Program-made: the position numbers and the translations under genes | Notes under the pieces: model-generated | Seen by the model: only the letters and a program-made list of their open reading frames with translations | Databases searched by the model: none | What the model was told of the DNA's origin: nothing | Shown here: piece by piece, positions 1,869 to 58,512 of the stretch | Numbering within the stretch: the stretch's first letter is position 1 | Layout of the letters: each line of letters opens with the position of its first letter | DNA from: Parcubacteria group bacterium Gr01-1014_8 | GTDB lineage: Bacteria > Patescibacteriota > Minisyncoccia > Phycocordibacterales > UBA2100 | DNA length: 64,000 nucleotides | Assembly: GCA_007376385.1 (NCBI GenBank) | Contig: VMGC01000005.1 | Coordinates: 64,001 to 128,000, forward strand | Direction: 5' to 3'

Positions 1869-1883
1869 CCCCGTGAGATAAAG
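1869..1883 (-). promoter_or_regulatory. Second copy of the TTATCTCAYGGGG motif (reverse orientation), partner of 1952-1970
   Basis: CCCCGTGAGATAAAG is the reverse complement of the motif. It forms an inverted pair with the purB-proximal copy 77 nt away. Confidence 0.4.
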
Positions 1884-1951
1884 CGATTAAATATTGCTAG
1901 TCGTGTCGAGATTGATAATATTGTTTGGGCGATGCAAACACTCGTTTTTTG

Positions 1952-1970
1952 TTATCTCATGGGGTAAAAT
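1952..1970 (+). promoter_or_regulatory. Putative purB promoter: TTATCTCATGGGG + TAAAAT (-10-like)
   Basis: The motif is followed by TAAAAT, ~33 nt upstream of the purB ATG. Confidence 0.45.
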
Positions 1971-17453: not shown

Positions 17454-17473
17454 AGTCTACCCCATGAGATAAG
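17454..17473 (-). promoter_or_regulatory. Putative leaderless promoter of P-type ATPase (motif + TAGACT)
   Basis: On the minus strand, TTATCTCATGGGGTAGACT lies 8 nt upstream of the ATG at 17445. Confidence 0.45.
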
Positions 17474-17539
17474 ACCAAAACCTTCCCGCCCTAATCGGTG
17501 TGAGTAAGGGAATAATTTTGTCTGAAAAGACCTATTTTC

Positions 17540-17558
17540 TTATCTCACGGGGTATAGA
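17540..17558 (+). promoter_or_regulatory. Motif copy TTATCTCACGGGGTATAGA (forward), inverted partner of 17460-17473
   Basis: Part of an inverted motif pair 87 nt apart in the divergent region between the ATPase and the LTD protein gene. Confidence 0.4.
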
Positions 17559-21775: not shown

Positions 21776-22456
21776 TTAAGCAGGAGGCGCAGTTTCTTCT
21801 TGTTTTGGCGGCTGCATATCGGCGAGCCGAAGAAAAAAGAACATCGAGATGGCACCTATGATGCTCATGGCAAAGAAAATTAGCCCGACATTGAGAAAAC
21901 TCATGTCCTCAAGAAGGAGTGAGCCTGATGCGGTGAGAAGAATGGTTGGAACGAGACTGACGCCTATGTGGATGACTATATAGGGAAGGAATGAAAGGCG
22001 GGTGAGCCCTGCGGCATACGCGACAATGTCTTGCGCGGTTATGAGGAGTACGCGCGTGATGAGGAATCCTTTTACCGTACCCATCATTGAAAGAATCCGT
22101 CCCAGTAAACCAGAATCACCGACCATGCGTTCAACGAACGCCCGGCCAAGTCGTCTGCTGATATAGAACGCGACGGTGCCGCCGATAGCGTCCCCAATAA
22201 CGAGATAGACGAGCGCCTTCCAAAATCCGAAGAGCGCGCCTCCAAGGGGATAGAGGAGCGCCCCAGAGAGCGGCGCAAAGATGATGGTAGAAGCTTTTGC
22301 CGCAATGAGTATGACGGGGCCCAAGACGCCAGCGCCCTCGATCCACGTGCGAAGCGAGTCGTTGCCGTAGGTCTGTATGGCGAAATACAAACCCGCGATG
22401 GTCACGACGAACAGCGCAGTATTTAGAAATAGATCCTTGCGAAAGAAATCAGGCAT
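21776..22456 (-). CDS. DedA/TVP38/TMEM64 family membrane protein
   Basis: Characteristic ..F.PLSGALLYPLGGALFGFW..G..IG....F..SRRLGR region with multiple TM helices. Start placed at the internal Met directly behind a motif/-10 (TATACT) promoter-like element. Confidence 0.7.
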   Translation of the reverse strand: MPDFFRKDLFLNTALFVVTIAGLYFAIQTYGNDSLRTWIEGAGVLGPVILIAAKASTIIFAPLSGALLYPLGGALFGFWKALVYLVIGDAIGGTVAFYISRRLGRAFVERMVGDSGLLGRILSMMGTVKGFLITRVLLITAQDIVAYAAGLTRLSFLPYIVIHIGVSLVPTILLTASGSLLLEDMSFLNVGLIFFAMSIIGAISMFFFLRLADMQPPKQEETAPPA

Positions 22457-22474
22457 ACGTATTAAGAAGCGAGC

Positions 22475-22497
22475 AGTATACCCCGTGAGATAATAAA
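22475..22497 (-). promoter_or_regulatory. Putative promoter of dedA-like gene (TTATCTCACGGGGTATACT)
   Basis: Motif plus TATACT on the minus strand, ~20 nt upstream of the ATG at 22456. Confidence 0.4.
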
Positions 22498-22603
22498 ATC
22501 TAAGCAGCGCCGTTAGGCAAACCATAAGCGTCTCATCTTTGCGCGGAGCACTTTCCACCCTGCTCCCTTTCCTTAGGTGAAGAATTTCGAGCACGATCAA
22601 ATA

Positions 22604-22633
22604 CCTTAAGTGTGCCGACCGGCACACTTAAGG
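22604..22633. promoter_or_regulatory. 14-bp perfect palindrome CCTTAAGTGTGCCG-AC-CGGCACACTTAAGG in divergent promoter region
   Basis: A perfect inverted repeat with no flanking T-run, so not a typical terminator. It lies between the divergent dedA-like gene and the cupin PGI/sugar cluster, so it is a candidate operator. Confidence 0.4.
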
Positions 22634-22893
22634 TATTTATGTGGGTATACTCTCGGGAAAACAATCTATCTATTCTATTTTCAAGTATTGCAGTATCTTT
22701 TGAAGTTTTTCGTCTTCGATGCGGGCAAGACGCATTTGCAGCTCTTGTATTTCTTTTTTTTCTGCCAGGTTGCAGGCCTCCATTGTATAGGGGCATTATA
22801 GGCCTGTCGCTGCAAGGGGGGATAGTCACAGGGGTTCATATCCACGCGCGCATGGATTTTTTTGAAACAAAGCCAGGTATACTGGAGGATACT

Positions 22894-23484
22894 ATGGCGA
22901 AAGAACATTTGGCAACGCGACTCCACGAAAAAATGAAAGAGGTATTGTTGCATCCCGACCTGCCCGGACCCTCTGAACACTACTATATGATCCGCGGGGG
23001 GAGCGACATGCGGAACGTAACGGTGTGGGAGTCGGGAAAAGTCGGCGATGAATATATAAAGACGTATGGACACTATCATATAGGAGAGCTTGATGAGACC
23101 TATTGGATACTTCTCGGCGAAGGGGTCGCGCTCCTCCAAAAGTTGGTGGAGATAGATGGGAAGCCGCAGCCCGATAGAGTGGAAGAATTTAAAGCCGTGA
23201 AAGTGAAGACGGGGGACTCGGTTTATATGCCGTCCGGATACGGGCACCTTGTTGCAAATACTGGAAGCACGTATTTTGTGACCGCAGACAACAGCCCAGT
23301 TGATTTAGGAGACAAGGACCCAATTTCGATGCCAGGCCACGCTGATTACGAAATGGTTCGCCTCATGCGCGGATTTGCATACTATGTCGTCGAACGAAAC
23401 GGCGCGCCGGCACTTTTGAAAAATCCGTTATATAAAGAAGTGCAGAAAACAGATTTTGGAGGTGTTCCTATCGTAGAACAATAG
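22894..23484 (+). CDS. Cupin-type (archaeal-like) glucose-6-phosphate isomerase
   Basis: ~196 aa from the ATG preceded by GGAGGA. Cupin metal-site pattern TYGHYH.GELDETY...H (GYGHLV) matches cPGI of Thermococcales. The annotated 5' extension is non-coding-like. Confidence 0.6.
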   Translation: MAKEHLATRLHEKMKEVLLHPDLPGPSEHYYMIRGGSDMRNVTVWESGKVGDEYIKTYGHYHIGELDETYWILLGEGVALLQKLVEIDGKPQPDRVEEFKAVKVKTGDSVYMPSGYGHLVANTGSTYFVTADNSPVDLGDKDPISMPGHADYEMVRLMRGFAYYVVERNGAPALLKNPLYKEVQKTDFGGVPIVEQ

Positions 23485-23489
23485 AATAC

Positions 23490-24728
23490 ATGTCTGAAAA
23501 GAAATTTCCTGAAGGATTTTTATGGGGCGCAGCGACTGCTTCGTACCAAGTTGAAGGCGGTATCGAGAATTGCGACTGGGCGAAAGCTGCTCGAGAAGGG
23601 AGGGTGCCAGAGTGCGGGCGAGCGTGCGACCACTACAATCGCTATGAAGCCGACTACGATATTGCAAAATCACTCGGGCACAACTGTCATCGGATCTCTA
23701 TCGAGTGGGCGCGTCTAGAGCCGGAGGAGGGGAAATTCGATGAGAAAGAAATTGAACACTACCTGGCTGTTCTTGCTGCACTCCGCGAGCGCCGCTTGAA
23801 GCCGTTCATCACGCTTTGGCACTTTACACTTCCGCAGTGGTTCGCCGACAAGGGCGGATTTGAACACCCTGATGCTCCGGAAATATTCGCACGGTACTGC
23901 GGATATGTCGCGCGAAAATTGGGGAATGATTGCCGTCATTTCGCGACCATCAACGAGCCCATCCCCTATGCTTCCAACGGTTGGCGGCGCGGGATATGGC
24001 TTCCATTTAAGAAGTGGCCGGGAATTGACACCATAGCGATCGCAACCTCAGGTCGCGAATTAGACCCGAGGCCAGAGACGAGCATAGCGAATATCTTCAA
24101 GTATTTTTCAGTCATAAATACGCTCATTCGCTCGCACAACGCGGCGTATGATGCGATAAAGAAATCGGCGTTCGGAGCAGAAGTGGGCATCGTACACCAA
24201 GTCCTTCTATTCCACTCGAATGGAAATCCATGGAATGTACTCCTGGCGCGCTTAATGAATTGGCACTTCACGCATTATTTTATAAAGCGTGTTTATAAAA
24301 AGTGTGACTCGATTGGCGTTAATTATTACTTGCACAAGAAATTCGGCGATACCGTCGTCTATGACAAGACGGATATGGGTTGGGACGTATATCCGGAGGG
24401 AATCCGCGAGGCGCTGCTTATGGTCAAGCGCTACGGACTGCCGCTGTGGGTCAGCGAGGCGGGTGTCGCGGACGCGAAAGACACAATTCGTGCCGAATAC
24501 ATCAAGGGGCTCGTTCGCGGCACGTATGACGCGATGCAGGAGGGCGCCGATGTGCGCGGTTTTATGTACTGGTCGCTTCTCGACAACTATGAATGGGCGT
24601 CCGGATTCGGGAAACGGTTCGGACTTGTGGAGATAGATTACGATACGCTCGAAAGGAGAGTCCGTCCGTCGGCGTACGTGTATAAACAAATCATCGAACA
24701 GAATGGCTTGGTAGACTCCGTGAGATAA
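23490..24728 (+). CDS. Glycoside hydrolase family 1 (beta-glucosidase-like)
   Basis: Classic GH1 N-terminus FPEGFLWGAATASYQVEGG, ..LWHFTLPQW.., and catalytic-region motifs (TINEP, VSEAGV). Confidence 0.85.
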   Translation: MSEKKFPEGFLWGAATASYQVEGGIENCDWAKAAREGRVPECGRACDHYNRYEADYDIAKSLGHNCHRISIEWARLEPEEGKFDEKEIEHYLAVLAALRERRLKPFITLWHFTLPQWFADKGGFEHPDAPEIFARYCGYVARKLGNDCRHFATINEPIPYASNGWRRGIWLPFKKWPGIDTIAIATSGRELDPRPETSIANIFKYFSVINTLIRSHNAAYDAIKKSAFGAEVGIVHQVLLFHSNGNPWNVLLARLMNWHFTHYFIKRVYKKCDSIGVNYYLHKKFGDTVVYDKTDMGWDVYPEGIREALLMVKRYGLPLWVSEAGVADAKDTIRAEYIKGLVRGTYDAMQEGADVRGFMYWSLLDNYEWASGFGKRFGLVEIDYDTLERRVRPSAYVYKQIIEQNGLVDSVR

Positions 24729-24798
24729 ATTCGTTGCGCTTGGCGGGGAGGCTTCTCGCATATTGCCAACATTCGACTGTGAAAAAGTCCGCGCGCAT

Positions 24799-24817
24799 TA
24801 TCTCATGGGGTAGAATA
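24799..24817 (+). promoter_or_regulatory. Putative leaderless promoter (TTATCTCATGGGGTAGAAT) of DMT-like permease
   Basis: The motif's -10-like TAGAAT ends 6 nt before the ATG at 24823. An inverted partner CTCCGTGAGATAAAT at 24716-24730 overlaps the GH1 stop codon. Confidence 0.45.
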
Positions 24818-24822
24818 GGTCA

Positions 24823-25731
24823 ATGTCAACCTGGCTTGGGCTTGCTGTATTTGCCCAGTTTTTGTTTGCTGTATCCGTGCTTGTCGACAAGCACATTGTG
24901 CTTCACAAAGAGCACATCGGGAAACCCGTTGTTTATGCCTTTTATGTTTCCTTGCTCTCAGGATTCGTTATAGTGCTTGCGCCTTTTGGGTTTGTATCAT
25001 TGCCAAGCTTGCTGGTTCTTGCGTACTCGCTCGTCTCGGCGATAACATTTCTTGTAGCCATCTATTTTCTTTACTCCGCGCTCAGTATTGCTTTCGCGTC
25101 CGACGTGGCGCCTGTTGTTGGCGCCGTCTCAGCGATCTCGACGCTTGTCCTTGCGGCTATTTGGATAGATGGAGATGTTACTGGTTTTCTTGTTTTACCG
25201 GTAGCGCTCCTCATTTCAGGGACCGCACTCATATCGCATTTTCACTTTACGAGACGCGCGCTTCTCTTTGTTGTCTCGTCCGGCGCTATGTTCGGCGTGA
25301 CGGTCTTTTTGAGCAAGCTTATTTTCATAGAAACTAACTTCATTGATGGCGTGTTCTGGACCCGCATGATGAATGTTGTTGTCGCGCTTTTCTTGCTTTT
25401 AATTCCTTCGATACAGCTCGCGATATTCACGGGTGGTCGGCACTCTTCTCACGGAGCAAAATTTCTTGTTATTGGCAATAAGATAGTCGCGGGGAGTGCG
25501 AGCGTGTTGACGGCGTTTGCAGTGAGTCTTGGCAGTGTGTCTGTCGTGAACTCGCTCGCGGGGCTTCAGTTCGTATTTTTATTTGCACTTACGTACCTCC
25601 TTTCCAAGTCGATGCCGGGGCCAAGTAAAAATACTTCGCACATCCATGTCGGATTTTTGCACACAGCGATCGGAGTTGTTCTCATCGTTCTCGGTCTTGC
25701 ACTGCTGTACGCCGGTCACATCAATGCATGA
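24823..25731 (+). CDS. Integral membrane protein (10 TM; EamA/DMT-like permease)
   Basis: Ten hydrophobic helices arranged in two five-helix halves. The stop overlaps the next gene's start (ATGA). Confidence 0.55.
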   Translation: MSTWLGLAVFAQFLFAVSVLVDKHIVLHKEHIGKPVVYAFYVSLLSGFVIVLAPFGFVSLPSLLVLAYSLVSAITFLVAIYFLYSALSIAFASDVAPVVGAVSAISTLVLAAIWIDGDVTGFLVLPVALLISGTALISHFHFTRRALLFVVSSGAMFGVTVFLSKLIFIETNFIDGVFWTRMMNVVVALFLLLIPSIQLAIFTGGRHSSHGAKFLVIGNKIVAGSASVLTAFAVSLGSVSVVNSLAGLQFVFLFALTYLLSKSMPGPSKNTSHIHVGFLHTAIGVVLIVLGLALLYAGHINA

Positions 25732-26720
25732 TGCGTTTTTTTAAATGGGTTTTGTTGTTCCTCGCTGCCCTTGCGGCGGCAGTAGCCCTGCTATCGATAC
25801 GACCAGCGCCCGAGCGCATCATCTACGGAATGTCGTTCACTAAGTTGCATGCCGATGAGCTGAAGCTGGATTGGAAAGTAGTCTACAAAGCAATACTTGA
25901 TGATATGGGAGTGCGCAAATTAAGGCTTGCAGCGCACTGGCCAATGACAGAACCGCAGCGTGACCGATATGATTTTGCAGCCATGGACTATCAAATACGG
26001 GAAGCGTCAAAGAGAGACGCAGAAGTAGTACTTGCAGTCGGGCGCCGGCTTCCTAGGTGGCCGGAATGCCATATACCTTCGTGGGTAGGGAATATGTCCT
26101 GGGAAGAGCAAAAGATGGAGCTGCGTCAGTACATCACGGCAGTTGTTGAGCGATACAAGGGCGAAAAAGCAATAACGCATTGGCAAGTCGAGAACGAACC
26201 GTATTTAAGTTTGTTTGCGACTGAAATATGCGGAGAACTGGACGAAGACTTTTTGAAGGAGGAAGTAGCGCTCGTAAGATCACTAGACTCGTCGCGACCC
26301 ATTCTTGTGACGGATAGTGGAAATCTCGGAACATGGTTTCGACCATATCGGCTTGGCGATGTCTTTGGAACCAGTGTGTATGTGCATTTTTGGACACCGG
26401 AGCTTGGTCAATTCAGGACGGTTCAGCCTCCTGCACTCTATCGAGCGAAAACAAACCTGATGCGGCTTTTATTCGGAAAGAAAGAGGTGTTTCTCATTGA
26501 GCTCTCAGGAGAGCCGTGGCTTGTTGAGCCGGTCCGGGATGTACCCATAGAAACGCAACTTAGTCGCATGGATATTGATAAATTCAACGATATTGTAGAG
26601 TACGCAGAGAAGACGCACTATGAGGAGCAGTATCTGTGGGGGGCAGAGTGGTGGTACTACATGAAATTACACGGTCATCAAGAGTTCTGGGAGCGCGCTA
26701 AAGAGTTGTTTGATGAGTGA
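25728..26720 (+). CDS. Glycoside hydrolase, TIM-barrel (GH5-like, NEP motif)
   Basis: Signal anchor. ..HWQVENEPY.. acid/base motif typical of GH5-type hydrolases. Sits in a sugar cluster. Confidence 0.55.
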   Translation: MMRFFKWVLLFLAALAAAVALLSIRPAPERIIYGMSFTKLHADELKLDWKVVYKAILDDMGVRKLRLAAHWPMTEPQRDRYDFAAMDYQIREASKRDAEVVLAVGRRLPRWPECHIPSWVGNMSWEEQKMELRQYITAVVERYKGEKAITHWQVENEPYLSLFATEICGELDEDFLKEEVALVRSLDSSRPILVTDSGNLGTWFRPYRLGDVFGTSVYVHFWTPELGQFRTVQPPALYRAKTNLMRLLFGKKEVFLIELSGEPWLVEPVRDVPIETQLSRMDIDKFNDIVEYAEKTHYEEQYLWGAEWWYYMKLHGHQEFWERAKELFDE

Positions 26721-26778
26721 CCCGCGGGAGTGTGAGTAGTTGGGGAGAGCGACAGTATTTGTGTGGCACAATAGACGA

Positions 26779-27591
26779 ATGTCCTTTGTGATATTCGATT
26801 TGGGCGGTACCAACTTGCGCATAGGTGTCTCGCGCGATGGCAGCAAAGTAGACGACATGAAGTCTGTGCCGACGCCGCCGAAATTTGAAGACGGCGTTAA
26901 TACTATTGATAGCGTCGGCAAAGAGTTGCTTGGAGGAAATACGGCGACCGCTGTTGCAGGCGGTATCGGATGGTCACTTGATCAGAGCCGCTCCTCAATT
27001 TTCAATTCAACGAAGAAAAATCTTATGGATTGGAGCGGAAAGCCGCTTAGAGATGAGCTTGCAGCCAGGTTCAAAGCGCCGGCAACTCTCTATAATGACG
27101 TTGCCCTTGTCGGTCTTGGGGAAGCACACAGCGGGGCAGGGAAGGGTTCATCTATTCTTGCGTACGTTACAGTTTCGACTGGAGTCAACGGCGTTCGCAT
27201 CGTAGATGGGAAAATAGACAGAGCGACATACGGGTTTGAAACAGGAAAGCAGATAATTTCTGCAGGAAAATTAGAAGATCTCGTATCAGGTACTGCGGTG
27301 ACAAAAAAATTTGGCATCCACCCGAAGGACCTGGATTCGCTCGATGAGAGAAATAAACTCGGCGACTTGCTTGCAGAAGGCTTATTCAACACCATTCTGC
27401 ACTGGTCGCCGGATACGATCGTTCTCGGAGGTTCGATGATAATTGGCAAGAATCCGATTCCGATCCCGCGGGTGATGGAGTCTCTGGCGAGAATCCAAAC
27501 AATTTATCCGACAACGCCGCGCATCGTCATGGCGGCGCTTGGTGACAATGGCGGACTGGAAGGCGCCCGCGTTCTCGCAACAATGAGGTAA
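26779..27591 (+). CDS. ROK/glucokinase-like sugar kinase
   Basis: N-terminal FDLGGTNLRIGV ATPase motif and ..AGGIGW.. of ROK/glucokinase-type kinases. Start placed at the internal Met. Confidence 0.65.
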   Translation: MSFVIFDLGGTNLRIGVSRDGSKVDDMKSVPTPPKFEDGVNTIDSVGKELLGGNTATAVAGGIGWSLDQSRSSIFNSTKKNLMDWSGKPLRDELAARFKAPATLYNDVALVGLGEAHSGAGKGSSILAYVTVSTGVNGVRIVDGKIDRATYGFETGKQIISAGKLEDLVSGTAVTKKFGIHPKDLDSLDERNKLGDLLAEGLFNTILHWSPDTIVLGGSMIIGKNPIPIPRVMESLARIQTIYPTTPRIVMAALGDNGGLEGARVLATMR

Positions 27592-27674
27592 ACCCCGTGA
27601 GATAGGACATAGTCCATCGCTCACACGACGTCGTTATGCTACCAACATTGGATGCTTAGCGGGGGTCAGATTGC

Positions 27675-27693
27675 ATATCTCATGGGGTAAACT
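27675..27693 (+). promoter_or_regulatory. Putative leaderless promoter (ATATCTCATGGGGTAAACT) of 33-aa membrane peptide
   Basis: Motif plus TAAACT, 7 nt before the ATG at 27701. An inverted partner CCCCGTGAGATAGG lies at 27594-27607. Confidence 0.4.
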
Positions 27694-27700
27694 GATAGAG

Positions 27701-27802
27701 ATGCTACGCATGAAAAAAGCGTATCTCTATATCGGAGCGTTGTTATTTCTCGCGGGTGCCACCGCGCAGTTTGTTCACGCACAGTATGGTGCTCTCGAAT
27801 AA
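27701..27802 (+). CDS. Small hydrophobic peptide (33 aa, MLRMKKAYLYIGALLFLAGATAQFVHAQYGALE)
   Basis: Below the ORF-track size cutoff. One TM helix, and the promoter-like motif directly precedes it. Confidence 0.3.
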   Translation: MLRMKKAYLYIGALLFLAGATAQFVHAQYGALE

Positions 27803-27847
27803 TGGGCGTACAATGAAGATACGTTATCCATAAGACCATTCGTGCGT

Positions 27848-28006
27848 ATGGCGGAAATAGCATATTGCGTAAAGTGCAAGCAAAAGAGGGAGATGAAGGA
27901 TGCGAAGGAGGTATCGTTTGCCGGGAAAGGAGGCAATCAACGCCGAGCGATGCAAGGCATATGTCCGGTGTGCGGAACAAAGATGTTTAAGATACTGGGG
28001 AAATAA
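27848..28006 (+). CDS. Small zinc-ribbon protein (52 aa, CxxC...CxxC)
   Basis: MAEIAYCVKCKQKREMKDAKEVSFAGKGGNQRRAMQGICPVCGTKMFKILGK. Two CxxC pairs. It ends 8 nt before a strong rho-independent terminator. Confidence 0.45.
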   Translation: MAEIAYCVKCKQKREMKDAKEVSFAGKGGNQRRAMQGICPVCGTKMFKILGK

Positions 28007-28013
28007 AGGTTCC

Positions 28014-28048
28014 TCAAAAAAATCGCCCCACGTGGGGGCGGTTTTTTG
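28014..28048. terminator. Bidirectional rho-independent terminator
   Basis: A-run, CGCCCCACGTGGGGGCG hairpin, T-run. It serves the convergent small genes on either side. Confidence 0.7.
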
Positions 28049-28062
28049 TCATTCAGTCCTTC

Positions 28063-28266
28063 TCACGCGGCGACTGTTCTTTCTTCTATCATCTGGTGAT
28101 AGTCCGCCACAGGAATAAGCGGTTCACCAGGATGTTTTTTCTCCATGTGCATTTGAATTCCGGTTGTGAACATCATGCCTTTTAGCATCGCGATAGCGCC
28201 GTCGCGATTTGTTGCGTCAACGGTCATGATCTCACCGCAGTCGCACTTCATGTTAAATATCGCCAT
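28063..28266 (-). CDS. Small DUF1059-like protein (67 aa)
   Basis: MAIFNMKCDCGEIMTVDATNRDGAIAMLKGMMFTTGIQMHMEKKHPGE.. The N-terminal CxC and His-rich C-terminus are typical of DUF1059 small metal-binding proteins. Confidence 0.45.
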   Translation of the reverse strand: MAIFNMKCDCGEIMTVDATNRDGAIAMLKGMMFTTGIQMHMEKKHPGEPLIPVADYHQMIEERTVAA

Positions 28267-28365
28267 ATATGTCTTGTTAGCGAGTAGTGGATGTAACTCT
28301 ACCCTTAGCTTTATTGCGGTGCAACAACCAGAATTTCATAACAAACAGATCTTGGGGGGCAGATT

Positions 28366-28484
28366 CACCACACGGGTACTTCCATTTCACTAACATCGGG
28401 GTACCGATGAAGTGAAATTGGTCGCACCACACGGGTACTTCCATTTCACTAACATCGGGGTACCGATGAAGTGAAATTGGTCGC
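28366..28484 (+). repeat. Tandem direct repeat (2 x 59 nt) of a nested-hairpin element in the glnA leader
   Basis: The unit CACCACACGGGTACTTCCATTTCACTAACATCGGGGTACCGATGAAGTGAAATTGGTCG is repeated head-to-tail. Each unit folds as CATTTCACT..(CATCGG-GGTA-CCGATG)..AGTGAAAT. It lies ~95 nt upstream of glnA. Confidence 0.6.
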
Positions 28485-28577
28485 AGCACGTATGCACCGC
28501 TTTGTCTATCTAGACGAGTTCACGCTCTGTTCTATAGTTCCTACTATAAATTATCAATACATTATACTAATTCCGGC

Positions 28578-30017
28578 ATGAATAATACTAAGAACTCCCT
28601 CAAGGATTTTCTTGAGATCCCGTACCAGAAGCTTGAACAGATGAATGTGAAAGCAAAGGAGCGAGCGGAGAAAGCGACAGATAAAGAATTGGAAAAAGAA
28701 TATACGGCATGGCTAAAAAGGGAAAAAGGCATCAAAGCAGTAACGCTTTGTTTCTCCGACATCGAAGGCAGGCTTCACATGCTGGACTATGACAAAAAGT
28801 TCCTCTTGGATTCTCTCTCGAACCTGACGTTCGACGGCTCGTCGATCCGCGGATTTACTCCCCAGCATGAGTCCGACTTGCGGCTTGAAGTAGATTGGTC
28901 AAGCATACGCTACTTTCCCTCAGACGTGTTCGGACCCGGTAAAGTCATCTTCTTTGCGTCAGTCTTGAACAGAGATAGGACACCCTACTTCTCTGACTTC
29001 AGGGGCCGATTGAAAGCATACACAGCCTCCCTCAAGAAAAAGGATGGGCTCACCGCATATGCTGCTCCCGAGATCGAAGGATTTCTCGTAGATGAAACAA
29101 ACAGCGAACAAAATTACCGTATTCACGGCGGCTTTAAATTGGTATCGACTGGAGGCTACTTTCACTCACTGCCGATGGACCCCCTGCGTGTTTTTATAGA
29201 CAACGCTGCGGAAGCGCAAAGAGCAATGGGCTTTAAGAATGAGAAAGACCACCCCGAAGTCGCACCCTCACAGTTTGAAATGAACTTCTCCTACGCGGAA
29301 GTCGTGCGCGCGGCAGACAACATCCAGCTCTACAAACTCGTCTGTAGGCAAGTGGCGCGCAACATGGGACTCACTGCTTCGTTCTTGCCCAAACCCTTTA
29401 CCGGCATCAATGGCTCCGGTATGCACACGAACTTTTCGCTTGCAAAAAATGGAAGGAACATCTTCTACGACCCGAAGGGCCAGGACGGTCTTTCCAAGAT
29501 CGCGTGGGACATGATAGCGCGCCTCCTCAATCACGCGCCGGAAATATGCCTCATCCTGAACTCCTCGGTGAACAGCTATCGCCGGCTTGACCCGCACTTC
29601 GAGGCGCCGAACCAGATCAAAGTCTCGCCTATTGATCGCGGTTCGATGATACGTATCCCGATAGGAAACGAGAGAACCGCACGCATCGAGCTTAGGTCCG
29701 TCGCGCCGGATGCGAACCCGTACCTCGTCTTGTTCACGATGTTGAAGGTGGGGCTGGAAGGAAAAAAGCTCGAAAGGGACGCAAACAAACGCGACCGCAT
29801 CCGTTTTCTTCCCGACAATGCCTACGACGCGATTTCCCTCTTCAAGGCGAGTAAATTCCTGACAGAGGCGCTCGGCGAGGAAAGCAAGGACAAATTCGCC
29901 GCTTACAAACAAAACGCCGCTGACCGTTCTCCGAAAGCTCTCGGCGCAATTATCAAGGATTCGGAAATAATTTATCACCACGAGGTAACCAACCAATATC
30001 TATGGAACAACTTTTAG
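28578..30017 (+). CDS. glnA: Glutamine synthetase (type I-like)
   Basis: GS catalytic motifs KPF.GINGSGMHTNFSL, NSYRRL and PDANPY, at ~479 aa. Confidence 0.85.
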   Translation: MNNTKNSLKDFLEIPYQKLEQMNVKAKERAEKATDKELEKEYTAWLKREKGIKAVTLCFSDIEGRLHMLDYDKKFLLDSLSNLTFDGSSIRGFTPQHESDLRLEVDWSSIRYFPSDVFGPGKVIFFASVLNRDRTPYFSDFRGRLKAYTASLKKKDGLTAYAAPEIEGFLVDETNSEQNYRIHGGFKLVSTGGYFHSLPMDPLRVFIDNAAEAQRAMGFKNEKDHPEVAPSQFEMNFSYAEVVRAADNIQLYKLVCRQVARNMGLTASFLPKPFTGINGSGMHTNFSLAKNGRNIFYDPKGQDGLSKIAWDMIARLLNHAPEICLILNSSVNSYRRLDPHFEAPNQIKVSPIDRGSMIRIPIGNERTARIELRSVAPDANPYLVLFTMLKVGLEGKKLERDANKRDRIRFLPDNAYDAISLFKASKFLTEALGEESKDKFAAYKQNAADRSPKALGAIIKDSEIIYHHEVTNQYLWNNF

Positions 30018-31360: not shown

Positions 31361-31391
31361 GATCGTGAGAGCACTTTGCAATGAACACAAA

Positions 31392-31422
31392 CAGCCCCGA
31401 CATTTTGTCGGGGCTGTTTTTG
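31392..31422 (+). terminator. Rho-independent terminator of amt
   Basis: CAGCCCCGACATTTTGTCGGGGCTG followed by TTTTT. Confidence 0.7.
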
Positions 31423-31424
31423 CC

Positions 31425-32045
31425 CTATAAACCTCCGGCGTTAGCCGGAGTGTACGTTTGAAGGCGAAGCCGTATGCTAAAGCCGTCCGGCAGGACGGCT
31501 TTAGCAATAACCATACGCATGTCATCACACAAACGTACAATACGCACATTATCACACTGCTTTTACGACCTGAAATACCATCTGGTATGGACACCAAAGT
31601 ACCGAGGAAAGGTACTGACAGCACAGAAGGTGAAAGATGAGTTGCGGAGAATCTTCGAGACAATCTGCAAGTGGAAACACTGGGAAGTCATCGAACTGAA
31701 CATTCAAGACGATCACGTACACTTCTGCATCCTCACGACACCGAGAGACTCCATCTCATATACCATGCAAATACTGAAGGGGAAGTCGTCTGCTTGGCTC
31801 AAGAAGAAGATCAAACGGGCACACGGTCTGTACGAAAAAGAATCTCTGTGGGCGAGGGGTTACTTTGTCTCTACGATCGGCATCGACGAGCACCTCATAC
31901 GTCGGTACATCAAGCATCAACACCATCACAATCAAACAGACCAACCAAGTCTGTTTGACAAGCTGCTCTCTTAACAACCGCGGCCGCCCTGCCGGCGTAG
32001 CCGGCAAATACAAAGCCACCGGACCCCAGTCCGGTGGTCGTTTAC
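31425..32045 (+). mobile_element. IS200/IS605-family insertion sequence (tnpA only)
   Basis: Sub-terminal hairpins upstream (CTCCGGC-GTTA-GCCGGAG 31433-31450; GCTAAAGCCGTCC-GGCA-GGACGGCTTTAGC 31476-31505) and downstream (GCCGGC-GTA-GCCGGC 31991-32005; CACCGGAC-CCCA-GTCCGGTG 32017-32036) of a Y1 HUH transposase gene. Confidence 0.7.
31519..31974 (+). CDS. tnpA: IS200-like Y1 (HUH) transposase TnpA
   Basis: HUH motif DDHVHFCI, plus ..YDLKYHLVWTPKYR.. and the catalytic Tyr region (..ISYTMQILKGKSS..). Start placed at the internal Met. Confidence 0.85.
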   Translation: MSSHKRTIRTLSHCFYDLKYHLVWTPKYRGKVLTAQKVKDELRRIFETICKWKHWEVIELNIQDDHVHFCILTTPRDSISYTMQILKGKSSAWLKKKIKRAHGLYEKESLWARGYFVSTIGIDEHLIRRYIKHQHHHNQTDQPSLFDKLLS

Positions 32046-41049: not shown

Positions 41050-42861
41050 TTGTGGGATGATGCGCTGATGGATTTTGGTCGCAAGTCAATAGGGGACATG
41101 CTAAACGGGATGGCTCGGTACCGAGTCCCAAAATACCAGCGCTCCTTTACCTGGGGTACAAACCAAGTCTCAGATTTTTGGAGAGACCTTTGTGAAGCAG
41201 ATGAGAGAGAAGGATTCTTTCTCGGGACCATGATATTGCATAAGGATAGAGAGGGGGTAGAGGTGGAAAATCTCAAGAATATTGTTGATGGACAACAGAG
41301 AATGACCGCCGCAAGTTTATTATTGCTCGCATGCAGGAATCACTCGTCAAGAAGGAACCGAGACAGGGCTGCTGCACTTGATCAAACTCTGATGTTTCGT
41401 GATATCGCTACTGGAAGAGCGGAAACGCTCAGACTTGAGGTCGCTCCAGACATTCTAGATGCTTTTCGTCACATGGTGACTGCTAGGCAGTGGGATGAAC
41501 AAACTTTTCCAGACGAAGTAGATGGCCGAGTCGCCAGACGAATAAAGTCTATTTATAAGTATTTCAAGCAGCAGGTAGACGAACTATCAGATGCAGAGCT
41601 CTCGTCCTTACTTAATAAATTGTTGAATTCATACTTTCTTGTGATAGAAATTGAAGATATCACACAGGCTTTTGAGCTTTTTGAACGAACAAATGCGCGA
41701 GGAACTCCGCTGAATGCAGGAGAGTTGCTCAAGAACAGACTGTTTGCAGAGGCGCAGGAGAAAGAAATTGTAGAAGGCGAATGGGAGGAGATTGTTTCTA
41801 ACTCTAATGGGATGCTACTGCGAATGTTGAAGTATTTTGCAGCTCTTAAGCACGGGCAAGAAACGGGTCGGACGGTTTTGTATCGACATCTGCGTGGTCA
41901 AGTTGAATCGGACACACCGAGCCAGTTCATCCACGATTTGAGCGCTTTCTCTTCATATTTTGGAAAGTTCTTGGACAACAAACTTCAAGCCGCACCATTT
42001 ATTGATCGAAATTCTGATAAGTCATTCGAATTTCTCTTCATTGATGAGATTGCTTTTAAAAAGTTTGGTCGCAGCATGAGTGCGATATCTCTTTTTGGTG
42101 TCTACATTGTCCTTCCCGTTGTTTTCGCTGGCCTAAAAGGGCTATCGAAATTGAAAGACAAAAGCGGATTTAGACCCGCGTTGAAAGATTTTCTAAATCT
42201 TCTAGGTACGATGGAGTGTTTCCATTTTATCAATAATCAGATATGTACACGTCCCTCGAATCGTGCCGAGTCACTATATGCAAGTAAAACAAATGTGTTG
42301 GCGACAGCGGAGACATGCGCACAGTTCAGAGAGGTAATAAAGCAGATATCAAAAGGACTCAAGGAGATAAAGGTCGCTAATAAGGAAGAGTTCCTACTTA
42401 ATTTTACTGGACTTTCATATACGAGTCCTGCAAGCGATAAGCCTCTCTTTGCATACGTCTTTGATAGATTTGAATCCTCTCCATTCGCGTCAGCAGCACC
42501 TGTAACCATATTTGATCCGTCAGCTAATTACAGCCTGAACCGCGTATTCGAAGTTGAACACATTACCCCTCGAGCAATGTGGGGCAATTTATATCCGGAA
42601 GATGATTTGGTCAACAATATCGGTAATTTACTCATCCTAACGCAGGAGACTAATAGGCTTGTAGATACCAAACCATTGCCGGATAAGATTCGAATAATGA
42701 AGGAACGAGGCTACGACAATTTAAGTACCGTTCAACAATTTTCTAAAAAGTTCGAGGATAAGGAACTCAAGTGGTTACGTCCGACAGACATAACAGAGCG
42801 ATCTGTCGCAATGGCAGCTCAAGGCTACAGTGATATTTGGGATCCATGGCCGAATGATTGA
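41050..42861 (+). CDS. DUF262/DUF1524 (GmrSD-like) modification-dependent type IV restriction endonuclease
   Basis: N-terminal DUF262 motifs (..RYRVPKYQRSFTW.., IVDGQQRMTA). C-terminal DUF1524 His-Me finger (EVEHITPRAMW....NIGNLLILTQETN). Confidence 0.75.
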   Translation: MWDDALMDFGRKSIGDMLNGMARYRVPKYQRSFTWGTNQVSDFWRDLCEADEREGFFLGTMILHKDREGVEVENLKNIVDGQQRMTAASLLLLACRNHSSRRNRDRAAALDQTLMFRDIATGRAETLRLEVAPDILDAFRHMVTARQWDEQTFPDEVDGRVARRIKSIYKYFKQQVDELSDAELSSLLNKLLNSYFLVIEIEDITQAFELFERTNARGTPLNAGELLKNRLFAEAQEKEIVEGEWEEIVSNSNGMLLRMLKYFAALKHGQETGRTVLYRHLRGQVESDTPSQFIHDLSAFSSYFGKFLDNKLQAAPFIDRNSDKSFEFLFIDEIAFKKFGRSMSAISLFGVYIVLPVVFAGLKGLSKLKDKSGFRPALKDFLNLLGTMECFHFINNQICTRPSNRAESLYASKTNVLATAETCAQFREVIKQISKGLKEIKVANKEEFLLNFTGLSYTSPASDKPLFAYVFDRFESSPFASAAPVTIFDPSANYSLNRVFEVEHITPRAMWGNLYPEDDLVNNIGNLLILTQETNRLVDTKPLPDKIRIMKERGYDNLSTVQQFSKKFEDKELKWLRPTDITERSVAMAAQGYSDIWDPWPND

Positions 42862-43321
42862 TGCAGCATTAATCAAACAGAAGACAAGGTACTTACGGGA
42901 CGGCCGGGCCCCGATTCCGAAAAGTGAAAAAATCTCTCGCACGATGAGTGCGATAAGAGCAAAGAACACGAAGCCCGAGTTACTTGTTCGCAAGGTTTTC
43001 CGAAAAGTAGGAATACGCGGATATCGATTGCATTGGAATAAAGTAGCCGGACGACCGGATATTGTGTTCCCTAAGAAAAAAGTCGCTGTGTTTGTTCACG
43101 GCTGTTACTGGCACGGATGTCCACATTGCAAACTTACACTCCCGAAAACGCATCGAGCATTTTGGCGTGCAAAGTTCAAGAGAAACAAGGAAAGAGACGC
43201 TCATAAGACAAAAGACCTGCGGAAATTAGGATGGCGTGTACTTACCGTGTGGGAGCACCAAATAAAGAAAGATGCGGATCAAATCGCTGCACGCGTCGTG
43301 AAGGCTCTTCGTGACGCTTGA
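42854..43321 (+). CDS. vsr: Very-short-patch-repair endonuclease
   Basis: ..SRTMSAIRAKNTKPE..GRPDIVFPKKKVAVFVHGCYWHGC..WEHQIKKD.., the Vsr catalytic core. Start codon uncertain (42854 or 42944). Confidence 0.85.
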   Translation: MIDAALIKQKTRYLRDGRAPIPKSEKISRTMSAIRAKNTKPELLVRKVFRKVGIRGYRLHWNKVAGRPDIVFPKKKVAVFVHGCYWHGCPHCKLTLPKTHRAFWRAKFKRNKERDAHKTKDLRKLGWRVLTVWEHQIKKDADQIAARVVKALRDA

Positions 43322-54450: not shown

Positions 54451-54696
54451 AGAGGTGTTTGCTCGGCATGTGTTTGCAGCCGCTGGTGTCCGGCGCTGCA
54501 CATTCGGTCTGTTGCTCTTAGTACTTCCTACATTCAGCCTACTGGCTTCAGTATTTCCTCGTTCTTCACTTGGTCATCGCTCTGCGCTCGGCAGGCTGCA
54601 TACCTTAGTGGTGCCGACCGGCACCACTAAGGTATGCGTTCTTTGCGGGGATATCTTTCTTGTTTGGGGCATCGTACGCCTGCTACTGTTACTGGG

Positions 54697-58421: not shown

Positions 58422-58512
58422 TCAAGAGTCTCTGCATAGAGCTCAAATCCAAAATACCATAATGGTGCCGGTCGGCACCATTATGGTATTTCGTTTTTCA
58501 TGGTGAGAAGCG

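What the first reader, a model, noticed from the sequence alone, without database searches (positions are those of the whole stretch)
22894..27591. Sugar-utilisation cluster built around a cupin-type (archaeal-like) phosphoglucose isomerase
A ~190-aa cupin protein has the metal-ligand pattern of Thermococcales cPGI (TYGHYH.GELDETY ... GYGHLV). It heads a co-directional cluster containing a GH1 beta-glucosidase, a DMT-like permease, a GH5-like hydrolase and a ROK-type glucokinase, with ATGA-type overlaps between the last genes.

The cluster lies downstream of a perfect 14-bp palindrome in the divergent promoter region.

Cupin PGIs are rare in bacteria, so this may be an acquired beta-glucoside-to-fructose-6-phosphate module.
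Basis: partly seen in the sequence, partly recalled or inferred. Interest (0 to 1): 0.5.

Follow-up and report, generated by a model that had tools for sequence, protein, structure and literature searches.

The report
Sugar-use genes with cupin PGI
A five-gene sugar-breakdown cluster in a tiny groundwater bacterium (Parcubacteria/Kaiserbacteria) really does include an archaeal-style cupin glucose-6-phosphate isomerase, but that enzyme family is already known and common in this bacterial group, so the finding is sound and fairly ordinary.

Summary
The five co-directional genes exist as described, in Parcubacteria bacterium Gr01-1014_8 (Kaiserbacteria-like).

**Cupin (22894-23484).** It passes Pfam PF06560 (65 bits, cut-off 20.7). 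Its best solved relatives by sequence and fold are Thermococcales cupin PGIs. All four metal ligands are kept.

**Not rare, not recently acquired.**
- At least 380 species-level Patescibacteria genomes carry a 64-86% identical copy.
- Cluster GC matches the window.
- Jaffe et al. 2020 already reported PF06560 PGIs in this radiation.

**Two conserved sub-modules.**
- A GH1, EamA/DMT permease and membrane-anchored clan GH-A glycosidase triad. It also occurs without the cupin.
- A cupin plus cysteine-free ROK kinase pair, adjacent in 19 of 80 species loci.
- Elsewhere the cupin sits beside GH15, phosphomannose isomerases, PGM/PMM, ManC and a PEP-synthase-like dikinase. This supports a G6P/F6P isomerase role.

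**Corrections.**
- The "14-bp palindrome" is the core of a 19-nt-arm hairpin with two sister copies elsewhere, and it is absent from the nearest relative.
- There is one ATGA overlap, not several.
- "GH5-like" is really unassigned clan GH-A.
- Glucokinase specificity is unproven.
- Absence of a conventional PGI could not be tested.

**Side observation.** A widespread ~95-nt palindromic-ended element has two copies in the cluster.

The parts
22599..22638 (.). Perfect 19-nt-arm inverted repeat with a 2-nt loop. It is one of three related hairpins in the window. It is probably a terminator or REP-like hairpin rather than an operator of this cluster.
   Evidence: -: the core GTGCCGNNCGGCAC occurs 3 times against 0.18 expected.
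- The mid-stem differs between copies through compensatory changes.
- The copy at 58445 follows the stop of the pyruvate phosphate dikinase-type (PPDK-like) gene and has a T-run.
- absent from the nearest relative L008 and from all 90 loci held at that point (L001-L090).
22884..22889 (+). Shine-Dalgarno-like GGAGGA, 4 nt upstream of the cupin ATG.
   Evidence: - One search shows the sequence.
- The start at 22894 matches the length of the homologues (195-200 aa).
22894..23484 (+). Cupin-type phosphoglucose isomerase family protein, 196 aa. The predicted reaction is G6P <-> F6P, metal-dependent.
   Evidence: - PF06560 scores 64.9 bits against a cut-off of 20.7.
- PDB sequence hits are 1j3p and 1qxj, E about 2e-8.
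- hhalign to PfPGI gives 97.6% probability, E 3.5e-12.
- The top 12 Foldseek hits are all cPGI structures or a cPGI-derived engineered protein (3sxw).
- H60, H62, E68 and H118 are invariant in 20 of 20 family members.
23490..24728 (+). GH1 beta-glycosidase, 412 aa, cytosolic, of the non-phospho type.
   Evidence: - PF00232 scores 236 bits.
- The best PDB hit is 1vff, the P. horikoshii beta-glycosidase, E 7e-73.
- Acid/base NEP is at residue 155, the nucleophile Glu is in SEAG at 322, and the DNYEW glycone-binding Glu is present.
- No transmembrane segment is predicted.
24716..24810 (.). A ~95-nt element with palindromic ends, CTCCGTGAGATAA ... TTATCTCATGGGG, filling the GH1-DMT gap. GH1's last codons (S-V-R-stop) lie in its left arm. 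Its right arm ends 12 nt before the DMT ATG.
   Evidence: - describe the element.
- Relatives without it have the GH1 stop and the DMT ATG about 5 nt apart.
- As RNA it folds with a 14-bp closing stem, z = -4.0.
24823..25731 (+). Polytopic membrane protein, 302 aa with 9-10 transmembrane segments, of an EamA/DMT-like family. It is the predicted sugar or oligosaccharide permease.
   Evidence: - The window protein itself has no Pfam hit.
- 21 of 31 family members hit PF00892 EamA, best E 3.6e-7.
- It lies between GH1 and the glycosidase in all 21 fetched loci where it was detected (tblastn) and in 3 cupin-less loci where the middle gene carries an EamA Pfam hit.
25728..26720 (+). Membrane-anchored clan GH-A (beta/alpha)8 glycosidase, 330 aa, with an N-terminal transmembrane helix. 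Its start overlaps the DMT stop (ATGA).
   Evidence: - Pfam gives GH42 at 42.6 bits and GH10 at 30.9 bits, both partial.
- PDB sequence hits are GH10 xylanases covering the N-terminal half only, E 5e-8.
- The AF2 model has pLDDT 86.
- E157 (in NEP) and E258 are invariant in 33 sequences.
- A transmembrane segment covers residues 4-22.
26779..27591 (+). ROK-family sugar kinase, 270 aa, with no cysteines and therefore no ROK zinc motif. It is the predicted hexokinase or glucokinase.
   Evidence: - PF00480 scores 72 bits.
- It falls below every NCBIfam equivalog cut-off.
- The best PDB hit is 5nck, an N-acetylmannosamine kinase, E 1.7e-15.
- DLGGT, NDV and STGV are present, ETGK replaces ExGH, and there are 0 Cys.
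- It is the immediate downstream neighbour of the cupin in 19 of 80 loci.
27593..27687 (.). Second copy of the ~95-nt palindromic-ended element. It starts 2 nt after the ROK stop codon.
   Evidence: - locate it.
- As RNA it folds with z = -4.1.

Best explanation
This is a catabolic sugar-entry cluster of a Patescibacteria (Kaiserbacteria-like) genome. It is assembled from two sub-modules that are each conserved on their own.

**Sub-module 1: GH1, permease, anchored glycosidase**
- The 330-aa clan GH-A glycosidase is held at the outer face of the membrane by one N-terminal helix. It trims an external beta-linked glycan or oligosaccharide.
- The EamA/DMT-type permease imports the product.
- The cytosolic GH1 enzyme, of the non-phospho type, releases the free hexose.

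**Sub-module 2: cupin and ROK**
- The cysteine-free ROK kinase phosphorylates the hexose, most likely glucose to G6P.
- The metal-dependent cupin isomerase converts G6P to F6P, using the His-His-Glu-His site of the Thermococcales enzymes.

**Shown**
- Family membership of the cupin, GH1 and ROK.
- The clan GH-A fold and catalytic glutamates of the anchored glycosidase.
- Conserved linkage of the genes.

**Inferred**
- Substrate identities, direction of transport, topology, and the operon structure.
- There are probably at least two transcription units, cupin-GH1 and DMT-glycosidase(-ROK).

The cluster is ordinary lineage content, not a recent import.
For: **Cupin**
- PF06560 scores 64.9 bits.
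- The fold match is.
- The equivalents of PfPGI T71, T85, G87, H88, H90, E97, Y99, H136 and Y160 are conserved, both in the clade and across 97 wider representatives.
- The metal-ligand roles are taken from PMC6627849.

**Context across 80 species loci**
- The full module is present in 16 loci, in two gene orders.
- A cupin-ROK pair stands alone in 13 more, with gaps of -1 to 58 nt.
- A GH15 glucoamylase-family gene lies directly upstream of cupin-ROK in 8 loci.
- A separate type-I PMI-like gene lies upstream in 9 loci, and a small PMI-like cupin in 13.
- A PEP-synthase/PPDK-type dikinase lies downstream in 7 loci, ManC in 3, and PGM/PMM genes are adjacent or nearby in several.
- All of these act at the G6P/F6P/M6P node. 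A separate PMI next door argues that the cupin is the PGI.

**Triad**
- GH1, an EamA-type membrane protein and the glycosidase are contiguous without the cupin in L088-L090.
- GH1 keeps both catalytic Glu residues and the Glu typical of non-phospho enzymes.
- The glycosidase keeps E157 and E258 and has one transmembrane helix.

**Native to the lineage**
- GC is 0.501 against 0.511 for the window, and GC3 is in the range of housekeeping genes.
- The lysA-VTT-cupin synteny is shared with L008 and L037.
Against: - No activity data exist for any member of this clade.
- Identity to characterised cPGIs is only about 25-28% overall, or 36% over the 119 aligned core columns.
- PfPGI Tyr152, implicated in proton transfer (PMC6627849), is an invariant Ser here. 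A 9-10-residue insertion precedes the His158 equivalent. That loop is variable across the whole family.
- The ROK lacks the zinc motif and the ExGH histidine, and it matches no specific kinase model.
- The window's permease has no significant Pfam hit of its own.
- The glycosidase's family and substrate are unknown.
- 51 of 80 loci have the cupin with none of these partners within 10 kb.
- Jaffe et al. found about 15 genomes with only the cupin version, and about 2% of genomes with more than one version. A conventional PGI may therefore coexist in this genome.
Confidence: 0.6

Rival explanations
1. The cupin is not a PGI. Instead it isomerises another substrate, for example mannose-6-phosphate, or a free aldose that the ROK kinase then phosphorylates. 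On this reading the cluster feeds a hexose other than glucose, such as mannose from beta-mannans.
For: - Type I and type II PMIs and lyxose/mannose isomerases are also metal cupins (established knowledge; PMC8378251 is listed).
- PMM, ManC and PGM/PMM genes recur next to the cupin.
- Tyr152 is not conserved.
- ROK specificity is open.
Against: - Pfam assigns only PF06560 and generic Cupin_2, with no PMI or lyxose-isomerase family.
- Separate PMI-type genes sit directly beside the cupin in 22 loci, which would be redundant if the cupin were the PMI.
- GH15 enzymes release glucose (established knowledge of the family, not tested here), and a GH15 gene heads eight cupin-ROK pairs.
- The conserved residues include those that align with PfPGI's sugar-phosphate-binding positions. 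Their role is recalled from the PfPGI structural literature and was not verified here.
Confidence: 0.15
2. The adjacency in this window is a juxtaposition of two unrelated units. The GH1-DMT-glycosidase triad serves envelope or host-glycan or glycolipid turnover, possibly with the DMT protein exporting. The cupin-ROK pair is general central metabolism.
For: - The triad occurs without cupin or ROK in L088-L090.
- The cupin occurs without the triad in 64 of 80 loci.
- A 94-nt gap holding an inserted element separates GH1 from the DMT gene.
- Unrelated genes (a Y1 transposase, a PaaX-like regulator) are inserted between the glycosidase and ROK in relatives.
- The closest solved GH1 is P. horikoshii 1vff. 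From memory, not checked here, that enzyme is membrane-associated and prefers alkyl glycosides.
Against: - The two units are linked in 16 of 80 species loci, in two different gene orders. Repeated linkage in different orders is what selection for co-location would produce.
- A glucose-releasing GH15 gene replaces the triad upstream of cupin-ROK in other genomes. This is the same logic with a different front end.
Confidence: 0.15
3. One reading: the module was recently acquired horizontally, ultimately from archaea, and fills a gap left by a missing conventional PGI.
For: - The best characterised homologues of both the cupin and GH1 are from Thermococcales.
- cPGIs are described as typically archaeal, with restricted transfers to bacteria (PMC12525153).
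- Jaffe et al. place CPR sequences as a sibling clade to the archaeal ones.
- The cupin is 64-70% identical even between Parcubacteria and Microgenomates. This is compatible with spread inside the radiation.
Against: - There is no compositional anomaly.
- Flanking synteny is conserved with relatives.
- Identity to Thermococcales enzymes is only about 25-28%. Many unnamed representatives are closer, at 33-45%.
- The clade is present in at least 380 species genomes.
- Any transfer from archaea would be ancient, not a feature of this locus.
- Absence of a conventional PGI was not shown. None occurs among the 43 window ORFs of 150 aa or more scanned against Pfam; those left unscanned were mostly overlapped by longer annotated ORFs, and the window is about a third of one contig.
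Confidence: 0.07

Closest known systems
Cupin-type phosphoglucose isomerase (cPGI, Pfam PF06560) of Pyrococcus furiosus and Thermococcus litoralis (PDB 1qxj, 1x7n, 1j3p)
   Same: - Same Pfam family and the same cupin fold.
- Same His-His-Glu-His metal site (H60, H62, E68, H118 here).
- Conserved equivalents of T71, T85, G87, Y99, H158 and Y160.
- Similar size (196 aa against 189 aa).
   Different: - About 25-28% identity overall.
- The N-terminal 40 residues are unrelated and were modelled with low confidence.
- The spacer between HxH and the catalytic Glu is one residue shorter.
- Tyr152 is replaced by Ser.
- A 9-10-residue insertion precedes the His158 equivalent.
- The organism is a mesophilic bacterium.
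- The gene is paired with a ROK kinase. In Thermococcales glucose is phosphorylated by an ADP-dependent kinase instead; that comparison is from memory and was not checked here.
PF06560 PGIs reported in the Candidate Phyla Radiation (Jaffe et al. 2020, BMC Biol 18:69, PMC7304191)
   Same: - Same family in the same radiation.
- Their PF06560 threshold was 30.2 bits, and this protein scores 65.
- They describe the sequences as a sibling clade to the archaeal ones.
   Different: That paper mentions about 15 genomes, mostly Nealsonbacteria, with only the cupin version, and it does not describe gene context.
- the Kaiserbacteria/Paceibacteria/Microgenomates clade in at least 380 species genomes;
- the recurrent cupin-ROK pair;
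- the linkage of that pair to the GH1-DMT-glycosidase triad.
Classical non-PTS beta-glucoside or cellobiose utilisation operons (secreted glycanase, permease, cytosolic GH1 BglA/BglB-type enzyme, ROK glucokinase)
   Same: Same logic: external cleavage, uptake of unphosphorylated sugar, cytosolic GH1 hydrolysis, then ATP-dependent ROK phosphorylation.
   Different: - The transporter is a DMT/EamA-type protein rather than an ABC or MFS system.
- The external enzyme is a minimal 330-aa anchored TIM barrel of no assigned family.
- The kinase lacks the zinc motif.
- The isomerase is included in the cluster.
- No regulator gene is present in this window's cluster.
Fusobacterium nucleatum N-acetylmannosamine kinase (PDB 5nck)
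   Same: It is the best solved match of the ROK protein (E 1.7e-15) and aligns over the full length. From memory, it too lacks the ROK zinc site.
   Different: The match is low-scoring (60 bits), there is no sialic-acid context here, and sugar specificity cannot be transferred.

Membership tests
Cupin-type PGI (PF06560) | Profile match above Pfam's gathering score. | tested here: met
   64.9 bits against 20.7, covering residues 55-184 of the 210-aa query used and profile positions 53-170 of 182. All 120 listed homologues carry PF06560.
Cupin-type PGI (PF06560) | Four metal ligands, His88, His90, Glu97 and His136 (PfPGI numbering; PMC6627849). | tested here: met
   H60, H62, E68 and H118 align to them. 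They are invariant in 20 of 20 clade members and present in 92-94 of the 99 aligned sequences (97 wider representatives plus PfPGI and the window protein).
Cupin-type PGI (PF06560) | Other active-site residues: Thr71, Thr85, Gly87, Tyr99, Tyr160, His158 and Tyr152. | tested here: inconclusive
   - T43, T57, G59, Y70, Y152 and H149 align to the first six.
- Tyr152 corresponds to an invariant Ser134.
- The loop alignment is ambiguous, and positions 152 and 158 vary across the family.
Cupin-type PGI (PF06560) | Fold closest to solved cPGI structures. | tested here: met
   - The AF2 model has pLDDT 70, and about 90 in the barrel.
- Foldseek ranks 1-12 are all P. furiosus or T. litoralis PGI structures or a PGI-derived engineered protein (3sxw), E about 1e-7, TM about 0.5.
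- The next hits are more than 100-fold weaker.
Cupin-type PGI (PF06560) | Catalyses G6P <-> F6P. | not testable with these tools
   There is only contextual support: neighbours are ROK, GH15, GH1, PMI, PGM/PMM and ManC genes.
Cupin-type PGI (PF06560) | Serves as the organism's PGI, with no PF00342 or PGI/PMI gene in the genome. | not testable with these tools
   No such gene was found among the 43 window ORFs of 150 aa or more that were scanned against Pfam; the unscanned ones were mostly overlapped by longer annotated ORFs. The window is 64 kb of a 190-kb contig of a MAG.
Glycoside hydrolase family 1 | Profile match plus the acid/base Glu (NEP) and the nucleophile Glu (TENG-type motif). | tested here: met
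   PF00232 scores 236 bits. NEP is at 155, and the nucleophile Glu is in SEAG at 322, aligned to ITENG of 1vff.
Glycoside hydrolase family 1 | Non-phospho type, not a 6-phospho-beta-glycosidase: the Glu in the DN(F/Y)EW motif is retained. | tested here: met
   DNYEW is at residue 365. The 6-phospho models score far below their cut-offs. The meaning of this motif is recalled knowledge.
ROK sugar kinase | Profile match and the N-terminal DxGxT ATP motif. | tested here: met
   PF00480 scores 72.3 bits against 22.9. DLGGT is at residue 7.
ROK sugar kinase | The ROK zinc motif (CxCGxxGC/HxE) and the ExGH sugar-binding motif. | tested here: not met
   The protein has no cysteine, and ETGK stands where ExGH is expected. 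It is therefore an atypical ROK-fold kinase. The motif definitions are recalled knowledge.
ROK glucokinase (TIGR00744 and equivalogs) | Score above the curated cut-off of a specific kinase model. | tested here: not met
   The best score is 67.4 bits against a cut-off of 260 (ROK_glcA_fam). All ten listed models are below their cut-offs.
DMT superfamily (EamA, PF00892) | EamA profile match and about 10 transmembrane segments. | tested here: inconclusive
   - The window protein has no hit.
- 21 of 31 homologues hit EamA, best E 3.6e-7.
- 9-10 hydrophobic segments are predicted.
- No internal repeat was detectable.
- There is no PDB sequence match.
Clan GH-A glycosidase (GH42, GH10 or GH5) | (beta/alpha)8 barrel with catalytic Glu residues after strands 4 and 7. 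| tested here: met
   - The AF2 model has pLDDT 86.
- E157 and E258 are invariant, at the ends of strands 149-156 and 253-260.
Clan GH-A glycosidase (GH42, GH10 or GH5) | Membership of one particular GH family.
   - PF02449 (GH42) passes its cut-off but covers only profile positions 111-199 of 376.
- GH10 is also matched.
- PDB hits are GH10, GH5, GH39 and GH42, at E of 1e-6 or weaker.

The most novel reading that the evidence does not exclude
In these reduced genomes the cupin enzyme is the only PGI. Together with the cysteine-free ROK kinase it forms a radiation-specific two-gene gateway from free glucose to F6P.

That gateway has been recombined with different front ends (the GH1-DMT-glycosidase triad, or GH15) and with an anabolic PGM-PMI-PEP synthase set.

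The 330-aa membrane-anchored glycosidase, which has more than 3300 homologues, would be a new glycoside hydrolase family that lets these episymbionts harvest host or environmental glycans.
Probability: 0.25. Interest if true: 0.45.

Novelty: new member of a known kind. Interest (0 to 1): 0.3.

Why it matters
Patescibacteria have patchy glycolysis, and how sugars enter their metabolism is still being mapped. A conserved cupin-PGI plus ROK pair, repeatedly joined to glucose-releasing hydrolases, gives a concrete and testable entry route. It also shows that PF06560 isomerases are a regular part of this radiation's toolkit rather than a curiosity.

The practical gain is better annotation:
- The anchored glycosidase is currently named 'beta-galactosidase'.
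- The permease is currently named 'hypothetical' or 'uncharacterized' (JGI labels a few homologues 'DMT-like permease').
- The kinase's sugar specificity is unassigned; it matches no specific kinase model.

None of this overturns current understanding.

Tried and rejected
1. **Hairpin at 22599-22638 as an operator for the cluster.** Rejected.
   - It has two sister copies at unrelated places.
   - It is absent from the nearest relative's much shorter cupin-VTT intergenic region and from the 90 loci held at that point (L001-L090).
2. **ATCTCAYGGGGTA as a generic promoter.** I first read it this way: 8 copies against 1.03 expected, often 6-8 nt of TAnAnT before an ATG.
   - It turned out to be one arm of a ~95-nt palindromic-ended element.
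   - Across 125 copies only GGGG-T-R-W-A is conserved outward, and ORF starts are only twice as enriched as in controls. The promoter reading is unproven.
3. **Rfam.** No family was hit in the window at gathering thresholds, and none in 22400-28650 at E of 1 or better.
4. **NCBIfam.** No model matches the cupin, the permease or the VTT protein.
5. **Profile search of the permease family against PDB.** Nothing was found. No internal-repeat signal was found either.
6. **Reading Hansen et al. 2005 (PMC1063998) for the cPGI signature.** The paper is not held. The signature-spacing remark therefore rests on memory.
7. **Naming the more distant PF06560 representatives.** The clusters carry almost no names, so no labelled phylogeny was possible.
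8. **Testing for a conventional PGI genome-wide.** No tool gives access to the rest of the assembly.
9. **Literature searches for the cluster or for the source MAG.** Nothing relevant was found.

Full report
**What is there**

On the + strand lie five ORFs:

| Gene | Coordinates | Size |
|---|---|---|
| Cupin protein | 22894-23484 | 196 aa |
| GH1 glycosidase | 23490-24728 | 412 aa |
| Polytopic membrane protein | 24823-25731 | 302 aa |
| Glycosidase with one N-terminal TM helix | 25728-26720 | 330 aa |
| ROK-family kinase | 26779-27591 | 270 aa |

- The cupin ATG is preceded by GGAGGA.
- The ROK start at ATG 26779 is my choice. A TTG at 26740 is also open.
- Junctions are 5 nt, 94 nt, a 4-nt ATGA overlap and 58 nt. 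Only one ATGA overlap exists.
- Upstream and divergent are a VTT/DedA-type gene (start about 22456) and lysA. Downstream are small ORFs, a terminator-like hairpin near 28024-28040, then glnA and amt.
- Proteins 100% identical to the window's permease and glycosidase belong to 'Parcubacteria group bacterium Gr01-1014_8', on a contig of 189,832 nt.
- The closest relatives are labelled Candidatus Kaiserbacteria, Paceibacterota or Patescibacteria.

**The cupin**

- Pfam gives PF06560 (GPI) at 64.9 bits against a cut-off of 20.7. The only other hit is generic Cupin_2, below its cut-off.
- The best solved relatives by sequence are T. litoralis and P. furiosus cupin PGIs, E about 2e-8.
- A profile of 20 clade members aligns to PfPGI with 97.6% probability, E 3.5e-12.
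- An AlphaFold model (pLDDT 70, about 90 in the barrel) finds cPGI structures (one an engineered cPGI derivative) as its 12 best Foldseek hits.
- The metal ligands His88, His90, Glu97 and His136 (roles from PMC6627849) correspond to H60, H62, E68 and H118. These are invariant in the clade and nearly universal in 97 wider representatives.
- T71, T85, G87, Y99 and Y160 are likewise kept.
- Differences from PfPGI:
  - Tyr152 is an invariant Ser.
  - A 9-10-residue insertion precedes the His158 equivalent.
  - The HxH-to-Glu spacer is one residue shorter.
  - Overall identity is about 25-28%.
- The 152/158 loop varies across the whole family, so this does not disqualify membership.

**Distribution**

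- The protein search returned 2708 hits, and the best 120 are 67-86% identical.
- A scan of one genome per species found 380 encoding stretches. The best 80 are almost all labelled Patescibacteria lineages: Kaiser-, Paceibacterota, Nomura-, Roizman-, Magasanik-, Levy- and Gottesmanbacteria.
- A few records carry other labels but share synteny with Patescibacteria loci, so those labels are probably wrong.
- At 50% clustering the clade collapses to one or two full-length clusters. More distant relatives at 33-45% identity lie closer than the Thermococcales enzymes.
- Jaffe et al. 2020 already reported PF06560 PGIs scattered across the radiation, as a sibling clade to archaeal ones. Their threshold of 30.2 bits would include this protein.
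- 'Rare in bacteria' is true of cultured bacteria (PMC12525153) but not of this lineage.
- Cluster GC (0.501) and GC3 match the window and its housekeeping genes.
- The lysA-VTT-cupin arrangement recurs in L008 and L037. Nothing suggests recent acquisition.

**Gene context, the main functional evidence**

I searched the window's proteins against the 80 species loci with tblastn.

- 16 loci carry GH1, permease, glycosidase and ROK with the cupin, in two orders:
  - cupin-GH1-permease-glycosidase-ROK, as in the window (10 loci);
  - GH1-permease-glycosidase-cupin-ROK (6 loci).
- 13 more loci have only the cupin-ROK pair. In these and in the second order the ROK gene starts -1 to 58 nt after the cupin stop, mostly 12 nt or less.
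- Clustering of the immediate neighbours, followed by Pfam on representatives, showed:
  - a GH15 glucoamylase-family gene directly upstream of eight cupin-ROK pairs;
  - a type-I PMI-like gene upstream in 9 loci;
  - a small PMI-like cupin upstream in 13 loci;
  - a PEP-synthase/PPDK-type gene downstream in 7 loci;
  - ManC downstream in 3 loci;
  - eukaryote-type PMM nearby in 4 loci;
  - PGM/PMM adjacent or nearby in several, for example L031, L054 and L079.
- Everything sits at the G6P/F6P/M6P node.
- Separate PMI genes next door argue that the cupin is the PGI and not the PMI.
- Conversely, the GH1-EamA-glycosidase triad is a tight unit without cupin or ROK in three other contigs.
- The window's cluster is therefore a fusion of two conserved sub-modules, not something 'built around' the cupin.

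**The other four proteins**

*GH1*
- PF00232 scores 236 bits. The best structure is P. horikoshii 1vff, E 7e-73.
- NEP at 155, the nucleophile Glu (SEAG, 322) and DNYEW are present. No TM segment is predicted.
- This points to a cytosolic enzyme acting on unphosphorylated beta-glycosides.

*Permease*
- It has no Pfam hit of its own, but 21 of 31 homologues hit EamA. It has 9-10 hydrophobic segments.
- It is DMT-like at family level.

*Anchored glycosidase*
- The AF2 model has pLDDT 86.
- Pfam matches to GH42 and GH10 are partial.
- E157 and E258 are invariant.
- More than 3300 homologues exist, which NCBI often names 'beta-galactosidase'.
- It belongs to clan GH-A with no assigned family, so 'GH5-like' is not specifically supported.

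*ROK*
- PF00480 scores 72 bits, but the protein falls below all specific kinase models.
- It contains no cysteine and has ETGK where ExGH is expected. It therefore lacks the ROK zinc site.
- Its best structural relative is F. nucleatum NanK.
- 'Glucokinase' is plausible from context but unproven.

**Mechanism proposed**

| Step | Basis |
|---|---|
| External trimming by the anchored glycosidase | Inferred from the TM helix and the fold |
| Uptake by the DMT permease | Inferred |
| GH1 hydrolysis to free hexose | Family shown, substrate inferred |
| ROK phosphorylation | Family shown, sugar inferred |
| Cupin G6P-to-F6P isomerisation | Family and active site shown, activity inferred from context |

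Confidence is about 0.6 overall, and about 0.8 that the cupin is a hexose-6-phosphate aldose-ketose isomerase.

**The palindrome**

- Two related hairpins share its outer (ATACC/GGTAT) and inner (GTGCCG/CGGCAC) stem. They differ in mid-stem through compensatory changes. They lie at 54598-54637 and 58445-58498.
- The copy at 58445 follows the stop of the pyruvate phosphate dikinase-type (PPDK-like) gene and has a T-run.
- The nearest relative, L008, has a much shorter (under 200 nt) VTT-cupin spacer without the hairpin.
- It is best read as a terminator or REP-like hairpin, possibly ending a 37-codon minus-strand ORF at 22670-22783. It is not an operator of this cluster.

**A side discovery that touches the cluster**

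- The 94-nt GH1-permease gap and the sequence just after the ROK stop each hold a ~95-nt element. Its ends are CCCCRTGAGATAA ... TTATCTCAYGGGG and its interior is hypervariable.
- The window has four full copies and one solo arm.
- GH1's last codons and its stop codon lie inside the left arm of one copy.
- Relatives lacking the element have the GH1 stop about 5 nt from the permease ATG.
- Each copy folds with a 14-17-bp closing stem, z of -4 to -5.
It gave 125 distinct copies of 87-106 nt.
- No Rfam family matches.
- Its nature is open: a MITE, an RNA processing or terminator-promoter cassette, or an ncRNA.

**Verdict**

- The 'rare, acquired' framing does not hold.
- The cupin PGI in this radiation is published. 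The cluster architecture and the cupin-ROK pairing appear undescribed but are conventional in logic.
- Novelty: a new member of a known kind. Interest: about 0.3.

Noticed in passing
window 1869-1964, 17460-17552, 24716-24810, 27593-27687; solo arm 22481-22493; also L001, L013, L027, L122 and L091-L210: A ~95-nt element with conserved 13-17-nt inverted ends, (TRWA)CCCCRTGAGATAA ... TTATCTCAYGGGG(TWYA), and a hypervariable interior of about 65-70 nt.
- Each copy folds with a strong closing stem (z of -4 to -5).
- L001 shows a compensatory change in both arms.
- Filled and empty sites can be compared at the GH1/permease junction.
- Tandem copies occur in L142.
- There is no Rfam match.
- It could be a MITE, an RNA processing or insulator cassette, or an ncRNA.
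   Followed up: partly
window 28366-28489: A 59-bp unit repeated 2.1 times at 98% identity, 89 nt upstream of the glnA start.
- Each unit contains a strong hairpin, and the RNA fold gives z = -3.5.
- There is no Rfam match, including the glutamine riboswitch families.
- It may be a regulatory element for glnA-amt.
   Followed up: partly
window 54598-54637 and 58445-58498 (with 22599-22638): A family of three long hairpins, ATACC-n6-GTGCCG-NN-CGGCAC-n6-GGTAT. The mid-stem shows compensatory differences between copies. They look like terminators or REP-like elements, and none was found in the related loci.
   Followed up: partly
window 31474-31974 (and L001 16511-17215): An IS200-like Y1 transposase gene (PF01797, 119 bits) lies just downstream of amt, with hairpins at 31386-31422 and 31475-31506. 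A Y1 transposase is also inserted between the glycosidase and ROK genes in relative L001.
   Followed up: no
window 41050-44648: A GmrSD-type restriction endonuclease gene lies beside a C-5 cytosine methyltransferase gene, in the lowest-GC stretch of the window (0.45). It is a likely defence islet.
   Followed up: no
window 17445, 24823, 27703 (gene starts): Three genes start 6-8 nt after a TAnAnT hexamer that abuts the right arm of the ~95-nt element. This suggests leaderless or very short-leader mRNAs.
- A TAGAAT or TAGACT hexamer 5-8 nt before the permease ATG is conserved in most of the 21 related loci.
- This holds even where the hexamer is part of GH1's last codons.
   Followed up: partly
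window 22670-22783 (-) and 28063-28266 (-): Two small ORFs.
- A 37-codon coiled-coil-like ORF lies just upstream (on its own strand) of the 22599 hairpin.
- A 67-aa Cys-containing protein has a homologue directly upstream of the cupin gene in L003 and L004.
   Followed up: no
L014, L026, L028, L033, L035, L044, L050, L067; L045-L084 group: Alternative operons around the same cupin.
- GH15-cupin-ROK occurs in one group of loci.
- In Microgenomates-type loci the order is PGM/PMM, small PMI-like cupin, cupin, PEP synthase.
- These are useful for assigning function across the radiation.
   Followed up: partly
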